NCBI GenBank assembly: GCA_964016885.1
Contig: OZ024742.1
Span: forward strand, 286,874,001 to 286,938,000
From: Eledone cirrhosa
Lineage: Eukaryota
DNA: 64,000 nucleotides
Direction: 5' to 3'
Below, in pieces: positions 3,981 to 61,383 of this stretch (positions are counted from its first letter, which is position 1; every line of letters starts with the position of its first letter). Below the pieces are notes generated by a model, which saw only the letters and a list, made by a program, of their open reading frames with translations, had not been told where the DNA came from and made no database searches. The position numbers and the translations under genes were made by a program.

Positions 3981-4817
<837 letters not shown>

Positions 4818-6433: not shown

Positions 6434-6475
<42 letters not shown>

Positions 6476-6482
<7 letters not shown>

Positions 6483-6956
6483 AATAGGATATCGCTTCAA
6501 GCATAGCTTTATACAATATGTATAAATATTTTGTATCTTCAAAGATATACGGTTTTAGGAAGCCGTAGCTATGCAAACACCGGGGGGCTAACGCTCTCTG
6601 GTGATGTCCAGCAGAAGCAAGAGGGACAACCGTCTATGCATTTCAGGCTTAACTGGCCTTCGTCAGGACGGTCCCTCCCACCGCCTGCGACTACTGGACT
6701 AGAAGACAGCTGAGAATATATACTTTTCTCGTCTGTGTAAATGAGGTGATTAATCTCATTTGCATATAAAGCTGCATAAGTTGGCTCAACTTATAATAAA
6801 AAAAGAAATAGGATTTCGCTTCAAGCATAGCTTTATACAATATTTATAAATATTTCGTATCTCCAAAGAAATACGGTTTTAGGAAGCCGTAGCTATGCAA
6901 ACACCGGGGGGAGGGGGGCTAACGCCCTCTGGCGATGTCCTGCAGAAGCAAGGGGG

Positions 6957-6960
<4 letters not shown>
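6476..6960 (-). mobile_element. Non-coding HHR-bearing element: ~324-nt monomer plus partial tandem copy (pLTR or retrozyme-like)
   Basis: GAAATAGGAT.TCGCTTCAAGCATAGC...GGGACAA at 6481-6629 recurs at 6805-6960 (period 324). (TA)n on both sides. Contains the HHR at 6621-6677. Confidence 0.8.
6621..6677 (-). ncRNA. Minimal type I hammerhead ribozyme, intact core
   Basis: Minus strand: ACCGUC-CUGACGA-AGGC CAGUUAA GCCU-GAAA-UGC-AUA^-GACGGU. Stem I 6 bp (extendable by GAGGGAC/GUCCCUC), stem II 4 bp, palindromic stem III AUGCAU, cleavage triplet AUA. Confidence 0.85.
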
Positions 6961-7040
<80 letters not shown>

Positions 7041-7450
7041 TACAGTATCGTAAAAACGGATGGAAAGAAGAGGTATAAAGAGGTGCGATACAGGGTATTA
7101 CATGCCAAAAGCGGGTGCGTAAGTGTTCGATGCTTGGGTTATCAGGGTTAAATATTAGAGAAAATTAATATTTAGTGTACAGGATTAAGCAGACCGGTTA
7201 TAGGCAAAATAATTAATGAAAGAGTTACAAGCCGTTAAATCATATCTTTATAAAGCTCTTACACGTGTTTCGCCTAATGGGGCTCGCCTGAGGCAGATAT
7301 TAAGGCAAAGTTTTAATTATATACCCTATTCGGATAAAATAATAATTTTATATCAGAGCATATTAAATATACGTGGTTAAGTATAAAACACAGAGGAAAG
7401 AGATTAGTTTGCTAAGGGAGGTAATTAGCGGTAATTACCAGAGCACACAC

Positions 7451-60444: not shown

Positions 60445-60569
60445 ACTATTTTTTTTGTTTCCTGCTACGTCCGAATAATAATGGCAGTAACAATAATAAC
60501 AACAACAATAATAGTAATTGTTATTATTATCATTAATATTACCGTCACTATCATAATGATAAACAATAA

Positions 60570-61383
60570 TAATTGTTTCTACTTTTGGCACAAGGCCAGT
60601 AATTACTCCAGTGTATTACTGGTACTTTATTTTATCGACCCCGTAAGGATGAAAGGCAAAGTTAACCTCGGCGGGATTTGAACTCAGACCATAAAGGGCC
60701 ATAACTCTTTGCTGCAAAATAATAATAATGATCCAATGAGCAAGAATTGTATGTTACTGTGTGTGTGTATTTACATGTCTGGAATATACTAAATAACTTA
60801 CTTTCGATTATATATATACAGACACACATATAGCTTTGAGTTTGATAACTTTGACAGGTTTCGGGGCATGTCTAACTTAATAGTTGTTTCTACATTTGGC
60901 ACAAGGCCAGCAATTATCCCAGTGTATTACTGGTACTTTATTTTATCGACCCCGTAAGGATGAAAGGCAAAGTTAACCTCGGCGGGATTTGAACTCAGAC
61001 CATAAAGGGCCATAACTCTTTGCTGCAAAATAATAATAATGATCCAATGAGCAAGAATTGTATGTTACTGTGTGTGTGTATTTACATGTCTGGAATATAC
61101 TAAATAACTTACTTTCGATTATATATATACAGACACACATATAGCTTTGAGTTTGATAACTTTGACAGGTTTCGGGACATGTCTAACTTAATAGTTGTTT
61201 CTACATTTGGCACAAGGCCAGCAATTATCCCAGTGTATTACTGGTACTTTATTTTATCGACCCCGTAAGGATGAAAGGCAAAGTTAACCTCGGCGGGATT
61301 TGAACTCAGAATGGCAAGGGCTGTAACTCTTTGCTGCAAAGCATGGCGTCTGACCCTCTACCAATACTGCCAATCCACCGCCT
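60570..61383 (-). mobile_element. Three SINE copies at 311-bp spacing (tandem duplication of SINE plus flank)
   Basis: GGCACAAGGCCAG at 60587, 60898 and 61209, with near-identical spacers. The third copy is full length with TSD ATGTCTAACTTAATAGT (61179-61195 and 61384-61400). Confidence 0.9.

What the first reader, a model, noticed from the sequence alone, without database searches (positions are those of the whole stretch)
6476..6960. 324-nt monomer with one intact hammerhead and a partial tandem copy
Seen: a direct repeat of period 324, with the second copy cut off by (TA)n just at the ribozyme stem I arm. Inference: a 1.5-mer is what reverse transcription around a small circular or multimeric RNA would give. 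Animal non-LTR retrozymes have monomers in this size range, and PLE pLTRs also form partial tandems.
Basis: partly seen in the sequence, partly recalled or inferred. Interest (0 to 1): 0.7.

Follow-up and report, generated by a model that had tools for sequence, protein, structure and literature searches.

The report
Penelope-borne 323-base hammerhead retrozyme copy
This is one of many hundreds of scattered copies of a 323-base, protein-free repeat that carries a predicted self-cutting RNA motif and was likely pasted into TA repeats by a Penelope-type jumping-gene enzyme, possibly from an RNA circle; it is a new member of a known kind of element (retrozymes).

Summary
On the minus strand lie a full 323-nt unit (6478-6800) and a 5'-truncated upstream copy (6802-6960), both in (TA)n. 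One canonical type I hammerhead is present, with its predicted cut between 6635 and 6634. The family has 376 exact cores and 905 exact tail motifs genome-wide, and compensatory stem changes between subfamilies. Copies are not circularly permuted: 213 of 248 arms end at one of two fixed sites 38 nt apart, and 61 of 64 classifiable back-to-back insertions use one site on each arm. This is the Penelope (PLE) 'tail' signature. A young autonomous PLE in the same genome behaves alike and is a candidate driver. The truncation next to the ribozyme is likely chance: 5' ends do not pile up there. Arms run cleanly through the cut site, sometimes twice, and the only long array found is not the source of the dispersed copies. 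A circular template is therefore favoured but not shown; no RNA data were available. No copy examined sat as the end repeat of an ORF. Verdict: a new member of a known kind (non-LTR retrozyme, non-autonomous PLE). The scan already noted similar families elsewhere in this genome.

The parts
6478..6800 (-). Full 323-nt non-coding unit (q1 = 6800, q323 = 6478), 42% GC, about 3.4% from the family majority (11 differences)
6606..6699 (-). Canonical type I hammerhead with extended stem I: core CUGACGA 6666-6660, 4-bp stem II with 7-nt loop 6659-6645, GAAA 6644-6641, palindromic short helix III 6641-6636, UUG bulge in stem I
6634..6635 (-). Predicted self-cleavage site (after A17 of AUA at 6635); predicted ligation junction of a monomer circle
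   Evidence: cleavage itself not tested
6478..6515 (-). 38-nt PLE-type 'tail' between the two fixed 3' ends (tail-less site about 6516 = q285; tailed site 6478 = q323); this insertion ends at the tailed site
6802..6960 (-). Upstream 5'-truncated copy (q172-323) with its own tail, joined seamlessly to q1 of the full unit; lacks the ribozyme core
6782..6828 (-). Tail-to-start junction holding two short motifs (an ATG-led 14-mer in the tail and a 7-mer 13 nt past the tailed site) at the same register as around the start codon of an autonomous PLE; weak similarity, suggestive only
6437..6477 (.). (AT)20 target microsatellite at the element's 3' end
6960..7034 (.). (AT)37 microsatellite at the element's 5' end, shared with a neighbouring, different repeat

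Best explanation
This is one old copy of a dispersed, non-coding 323-nt repeat family with a conserved type I hammerhead motif, likely a non-autonomous passenger (non-LTR retrozyme) copied into (TA)n tracts by the reverse transcriptase and GIY-YIG endonuclease of a Penelope-like element. Shown: the unit, the ribozyme motif and its covariation, the copy number, two fixed 3' ends 38 nt apart, variable 5' ends, the TA target, the one-site-per-arm rule in back-to-back insertions, and clean read-through of the cut site. Inferred: tandem transcripts self-cleave (probably as hammerhead dimers, because helix III is short and palindromic) and the monomer is ligated into a circle. A PLE protein, probably a dimer, nicks both strands of a TA tract and starts cDNA internally at the two sites, one per strand. 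Each arm runs back round the template until it falls off at random, and the arms join head to head, or only one survives. The window copy is a single arm primed at the tailed site that ran 475 nt (1.47 rounds). Confidence is about 0.9 for 'PLE-mobilised non-autonomous hammerhead element' and about 0.55 for the circular template.
For: Family: 376 exact cores, 905 exact tail 24-mers, 2132 first-look candidates; median divergence from the majority 3.6% over 234 pieces. Ends: of 248 arms in 138 unique insertions from 150 loci, 120 end at q316-323 and 93 at q278-299; 164 of these 213 have (TA)3 within 8 nt; public contigs show loose ends into TA at the same two sites. Pairing: 61 of 64 classifiable two-armed insertions have one end of each kind, and 15 of 17 in the set anchored on the ribozyme core, p = 0.001 against 0.5. 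[quoted passage not shown] Autonomous PLE with an 860-aa RT + GIY-YIG ORF: copies 97.6-99.9% identical, 10 tailed and 10 tail-less ends in TA among 20, and both two-armed insertions checked had one of each. Ribozyme kept by selection in the lineage: 95.4% of cells paired, 38 both-side changes against 15.2 shuffled, in stems I and II. Circle: in the tail-anchored set 35 of 37 and 36 of 36 arms pass the first cut site; 1 of 68 pieces has an indel at the junction; 14 of 213 arms cross it twice, one of them part of the array; genome-wide 77 tandem pairs of cut-site motifs fall in 75 loci and only one locus is chained; that 11-unit array has a variant in 10 of 10 units seen in 1 of 177 pieces outside it, so it is not their source; copies within one insertion share derived alleles (0.215 direct, 0.285 inverted, against 0.06 between insertions); the monomer folds as a stable circle, z = -4.0.
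Against: Cleavage, ligation and transcription were not observed. In anole Poseidon the hammerhead was dispensable for insertion in vitro, uncut RNA was the main substrate, and no reads ended at the cut site (PMC11167929). In Xenopus 8 of 9 predicted dimers did not cleave in vitro (10.64898/2026.07.22.740005). Only 9 of 138 insertions hold two intact cores on one strand, so the family is mostly not tandem. The link to the candidate driver is weak: the registered 75-nt comparison beats 5000 of 5000 shuffles, but AT-rich windows of unrelated PLE loci score as high or higher, and a local alignment gave p about 0.05. Shared alleles within insertions could also come from subfamily structure or gene conversion. 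Covariation cells reflect about four events inherited by many sequences, on a structure I drew from these sequences. The two window copies differ at 10 sites, so this locus adds nothing of its own on the template.
Confidence: 0.72

Rival explanations
1. Same non-autonomous PLE passenger, but copied from uncut linear read-through transcripts of tandem loci (dimers or an unassembled array); the hammerhead trims transcripts or is a passenger and no circle is used.
For: Anole Poseidon uses uncut RNA in vitro (PMC11167929). About 75 genomic loci hold two cut sites in tandem and 70 of 138 insertions keep a tail-to-start junction, so more-than-unit linear templates exist. Arrays may be collapsed in the assembly.
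Against: If sequence 3' of the start site is needed, as in anole Poseidon, two-junction arms need sources of three or more units; only one such locus was found and it is excluded by its private variant. Compensatory changes show the ribozyme fold is kept.
Confidence: 0.3
2. The copies are just severely 5'-truncated ends (solo pLTRs) of an autonomous Penelope-like element whose ORF was not sampled.
For: The anatomy is pure PLE (tail, inversions, TA target). The genome has 10,596 GIY-YIG first-look candidates, of which I examined only 30 short and about 40 longer loci. The tail holds an ATG in the same position as the start codon of an autonomous PLE.
Against: Arms longer than one unit continue into the unit's own tail, never into coding sequence. 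PLE protein matches in 31 of 160 family loci belong to several families at varied distances and orientations; the unit itself encodes no PLE-like peptide. No pLTR among the 30 + 20 GIY-YIG loci matched the unit. The first 100 of 816 bipartite-motif hits were only this family and the one autonomous family.
Confidence: 0.06
3. A local tandem duplication or minisatellite with an accidental hammerhead-like motif, or a SINE moved by a LINE.
For: One array shows a later block duplication (units 3 and 8 share a deletion), so DNA-level duplication does occur.
Against: Hundreds of dispersed copies on many contigs with fixed internal 3' ends, no poly-A tail, head-to-head arms and compensatory stem changes.
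Confidence: 0.02

Closest known systems
Metazoan non-LTR retrozymes (PMC7229834: passages and Discussion read; bioRxiv 10.64898/2026.07.22.740005: parts 1-3 of 5 read, supplements not seen)
   Same: About 300-nt non-coding unit, GC under 45%, canonical type I hammerhead with short palindromic helix III, some dimers and one multimer, co-occurrence with PLEs, proposed PLE mobilisation through circles.
   Different: Mostly dispersed 0.2-1.9-unit arms in back-to-back pairs, not long tandems; two fixed 3' ends mapped; circular RNA and cleavage not shown here; a mollusc lineage (octopus-like, inferred) not covered in the passages read.
Pseudo-LTRs of canonical EN+ Penelope-like elements (PMC4209133 and PMC8557442: passages; anole Poseidon PAc, PMC11167929: parts 1-2 of 4)
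   Same: Partial tandems, inverted 5'-truncated arm, 30-40-nt tail at one end, AT-rich or (TA)n target, hammerhead about 120-160 nt upstream of the two start sites.
   Different: No ORF; the hammerhead is the canonical form with a bulged, extended stem I, not the minimal PLE form; the tail runs into the unit's own start instead of an ORF.
Autonomous RT + GIY-YIG PLE family in this genome (loci L232-L281; clade not assigned by any search)
   Same: TA target, two 3' ends (tail about 44 nt against 38), one end of each kind in two-armed insertions (2 of 2), hammerhead-like core about 140-150 nt before an ATG in the tail, two short shared motifs in register.
   Different: No alignable homology over the rest of the unit; its core is degenerate (U4 replaced by C); its best copies are younger (97.6-99.9% identical) than this family.

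Membership tests
Non-LTR retrozyme | Canonical type I hammerhead in each unit | tested here: met
   Core, stems and AUA site; covariation across subfamilies. Rfam gave no hit.
Non-LTR retrozyme | Small (about 150-400 nt) non-coding unit, GC under 45% | tested here: met
   323 nt, 42% GC; no PLE-like peptide.
Non-LTR retrozyme | Head-to-tail copies with at least two consecutive hammerheads | tested here: met
   Met by the family (75 loci, one 11-unit array), not by this window copy, which has one core; 9 of 138 insertions have two intact same-strand cores.
Non-LTR retrozyme | Self-cleavage of the transcript | not testable with these tools
   Needs in vitro transcription of a dimer.
Non-LTR retrozyme | Monomer linear and circular RNA in vivo | not testable with these tools
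   No RNA holder was listed; genomic hints only.
Non-autonomous Penelope-like element | [quoted passage not shown] | tested here: met
   213 of 248 arms; 61 of 64 two-armed insertions.
Non-autonomous Penelope-like element | Partial tandems and inverted 5'-truncated copies | tested here: met
   83 of 138 insertions two-armed and diverging; 70 of 138 with a tail-to-start junction.
Non-autonomous Penelope-like element | Microsatellite or AT-rich target | tested here: met
   164 of 213 3' ends have (TA)3 within 8 nt.
Non-autonomous Penelope-like element | Identified autonomous partner sharing the recognised end | tested here: inconclusive
   Candidate with the same end geometry and short shared motifs; similarity not above AT-rich background windows.
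Autonomous PLE (pLTR of an ORF-bearing element) | RT + GIY-YIG ORF between the repeats | tested here: not met
   None in pLTR position in 160 family loci; unit absent from 50 GIY-YIG loci.
Plant-type LTR retrozyme | Type III hammerhead in LTRs with PBS, PPT and 4-bp target duplication | tested here: not met
   Type I topology; fixed internal 3' ends in TA and back-to-back arms. PBS and PPT were not searched for.

The most novel reading that the evidence does not exclude
The family is a genomic record of a Penelope enzyme copying a ribozyme-made RNA circle from two internal start sites at once, one per target strand, and the near-identical intact PLE family in the same genome is the enzyme's lineage. 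Element and driver together would give a minimal two-part system (323-nt circle plus 860-aa protein) to test directly the long-standing proposal that PLEs and animal retrozymes transpose through circular RNA.
Probability: 0.35. Interest if true: 0.65.

Novelty: new member of a known kind. Interest (0 to 1): 0.36.

Why it matters
How animal retrozymes move, and why PLE insertions come as partial tandems with an inverted arm and a one-sided tail, is proposed but not settled. This family gives clean counts: a near-strict one-site-per-arm rule, precise read-through of the ribozyme cut site, and no suitable multimer source in the assembly. It also offers a candidate young driver. That makes the circle-template model testable. 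The element itself is a known kind, and the scan has already noted several similar families in this genome.

Tried and rejected
Rfam scans: no hammerhead family reported, only microsatellite-driven miRNA hits. RNA runs: no RNA holder listed; the three runs laid were contigs of one sample and served only to confirm the two ends and variants. Pile-up of 5' ends at the cut site: none; an apparent pile-up at q1-17 was mostly missed short tail pieces and shrank after extension. L007: the sequence after a third partial unit looked like an ORF start but reads as an unrelated element on the other strand (the family label is recalled). Neptune-like GIY-YIG loci as parent: no shared end (the clade label is recalled from the CxxC linker described in PMC8557442). 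The unit as a relic of a PLE N-terminus: no protein match. The first pair count used a mis-registered structure and was redone. One pattern search lacked a base and was uninformative. One Pfam family asked for was not in the library. Searching for an empty target site through the right flank found instead a second repeat family. Literature: no description of a cephalopod retrozyme was found in searches, and no count of the one-site-per-arm rule in searches; supplements of the bioRxiv retrozyme survey were not seen and could list related families.

Full report
Observation. The repeat is real: 6468-6587 matches 6792-6911 at spacing 324 (93%), and 6582-6629 matches 6913-6960 at spacing 331 after a 7-nt insertion; (AT)n tracts flank it on both sides. 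A scan of both strands of the window found one hammerhead core with a paired stem II, on the minus strand from 6666, with A17 of an AUA triplet at 6635. It has a 4-bp stem II, a 2-bp palindromic helix III and a long bulged stem I. That is the 'canonical' metazoan type I form described in PMC4209133 (passages), which is expected to cut as a dimer. Rfam did not report it. In RNA sense the locus reads: (TA)n, a 5'-truncated copy (q172-323), a full unit (q1-323, where q1 = 6800), (TA)n.

Family. The exact 37-nt core occurs 376 times and a 24-nt tail motif 905 times in the 3.0-Gb genome, with 0 for the reversed controls. Pieces lie a median 3.6% from the majority sequence (234 pieces of at least 100 nt). 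I analysed 150 loci: 30 best hits, 50 anchored on the core and 70 anchored on the tail. They gave 138 unique insertions and 248 arms (pieces under 25 nt dropped). The organism is octopus-like by recall of its repeats and by other notes of this scan; no call of mine named it.

Ends. 120 arms end at q316-323 (tailed) and 93 at q278-299 (tail-less, mode q285); 35 end elsewhere, apparently interrupted. Of the 213, 164 run into (TA)3 within 8 nt. Public contigs show loose ends into TA at the same two sites. So copies are not circularly permuted. Of 138 insertions, 83 are two diverging arms joined at their 5' ends. In 64 both ends could be classed (19 dropped), and 61 have one tailed and one tail-less arm; in the core-anchored set it is 15 of 17, p = 0.001. 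This is the PLE signature: a 30-40-bp tail often at only one end, with inverted truncated copies (PMC8557442, 12 of 20 passages). It also fits anole Poseidon, where the protein is predicted to be a dimer, extends both target strands and starts internally at two adjacent sites that define the tail (PMC11167929, parts 1-2 of 4).

The cut-off at stem I. The window arm stops 5 nt short of its second cut site, but the family shows no such preference: 5 of 213 5' ends lie in q162-176 (about 10 expected if uniform), and 1 of 102 in the tail-anchored set. There, 35 of 37 tailed and 36 of 36 tail-less arms that reach the first cut site pass it. The template was therefore not a cut linear monomer, and the window's truncation is likely chance.

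Is the ribozyme kept? An older subfamily differs in the core region. In 27 aligned sequences (the window plus 26 of 30 loci; L202, L214, L226 and L229 left out) 95.4% of cells pair, and both-side changes fall in stems I and II: 38 cells against 15.2 shuffled. These are about four events shared by descent, on a structure I drew, so this is moderate evidence that the fold was selected in the replicating lineage.

Circle or linear multimer. For a circle: the junction is passed without scars (1 of 68 pieces with an indel); 14 of 213 arms cross it twice; copies inside one insertion share derived alleles three to four times more than copies from different insertions (67 direct and 146 inverted pairs, array and poly-C tract excluded); the monomer folds as a stable circle (z = -4.0 against 100 shuffles). 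Genome-wide, 77 exact tandem pairs of cut-site motifs fall in 75 loci, only one of them chained (exact motifs, so a lower bound). That 11-unit array starts truncated, ends at the tail-less site, has mostly star-like divergence with one later block duplication, and carries a variant in 10 of 10 units that is in 1 of 177 pieces elsewhere. It looks like one rolling product and is not the master. Against: no RNA evidence is in hand; anole Poseidon used uncut RNA in vitro; 8 of 9 Xenopus dimers did not cleave (10.64898/2026.07.22.740005, parts 1-3 of 5); arrays can collapse in assemblies. I put the circle at about 0.55.

Driver. No copy sat as the end repeat of an ORF. PLE protein hits in 31 of 160 family loci came from several families at varied distance and orientation, and 50 GIY-YIG loci lacked the unit. 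One autonomous family with an 860-aa RT + GIY-YIG ORF (716 first-look candidates) has copies 97.6-99.9% identical. Of 20 ends fetched, 10 were tailed and 10 tail-less, all in TA, and both two-armed insertions checked had one of each. Its tail holds the start codon. The unit has an ATG-led motif and a 7-mer at the same register around its tailed site; a pattern built from both matched only these two families in the first 100 of 816 hits. The registered similarity beats all 5000 shuffles but not AT-rich windows of unrelated loci, so this is a candidate, not a proof.

Comparison and verdict. It works like a non-autonomous PLE and meets the sequence-level definition of a non-LTR retrozyme at family level (PMC7229834, passages and Discussion; the 2026 preprint argues that such retrozymes derive from PLE pLTRs). 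Cleavage and circular RNA are untested. The circle-template idea itself is in print (PMC4209133, PMC7229834). Searches found no description of a cephalopod retrozyme or a count of the pairing rule; PMC8967140 (passages) notes Penelope expansion in coleoids without ribozymes. Earlier notes of this scan report similar families and the same two-end rule on other DNA of this genome, and no look-alike of this sequence. New member of a known kind; interest 0.36.

Noticed in passing
window 7035-7432: A second dispersed ~400-nt repeat (1073 first-look candidates, 82-95% identical) abuts the same TA tract, has a fixed end at the TA and inverted pieces, and carries on the minus strand a hammerhead-like core with A in place of U4 that is kept in most of 12 loci.
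   Followed up: partly
L232-L281 (for example G000:C4:313819200-313823200): Young autonomous Penelope-like family with many intact ~860-aa ORFs, start codon inside the tail, and a degenerate hammerhead core (C in place of U4); likely recently active.
   Followed up: partly
L063:3632-6935 (G000:C2:83920632-83923935): 11-unit head-to-tail array of this family with a private variant in all units and a later block duplication.
   Followed up: yes
window 17879-54196: 36-kb satellite of 80-bp period, 454 copies, 95% matches; no match to the element or to eight PLE or element loci tried.
   Followed up: partly
window 60567-61340: 2.5 tandem copies of a 311-bp unit (97% matches) resembling a SINE that also interrupts a family copy in L019; SINE label recalled.
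   Followed up: no
G000:C1:195537524-195537810: The start-codon region of the autonomous PLE is repeated four times at 80-bp spacing, a small tandem born from a PLE end.
   Followed up: no
window 4206-4577 (-): Fragment of a GIY-YIG-like reading frame ending at a long TA tract, probably another PLE remnant.
   Followed up: no
L182-L201: Several long-ORF PLE families with a CxxC linker and long 3' UTRs whose hammerhead-like cores are degenerate and lie about 25 nt from the TA end.
   Followed up: partly
family column q142: A at the first stem II position is T in 26 of 189 pieces, which breaks the pair and creates an ATG at the position where anole Poseidon starts its ORF; the frame closes after three codons.
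   Followed up: no
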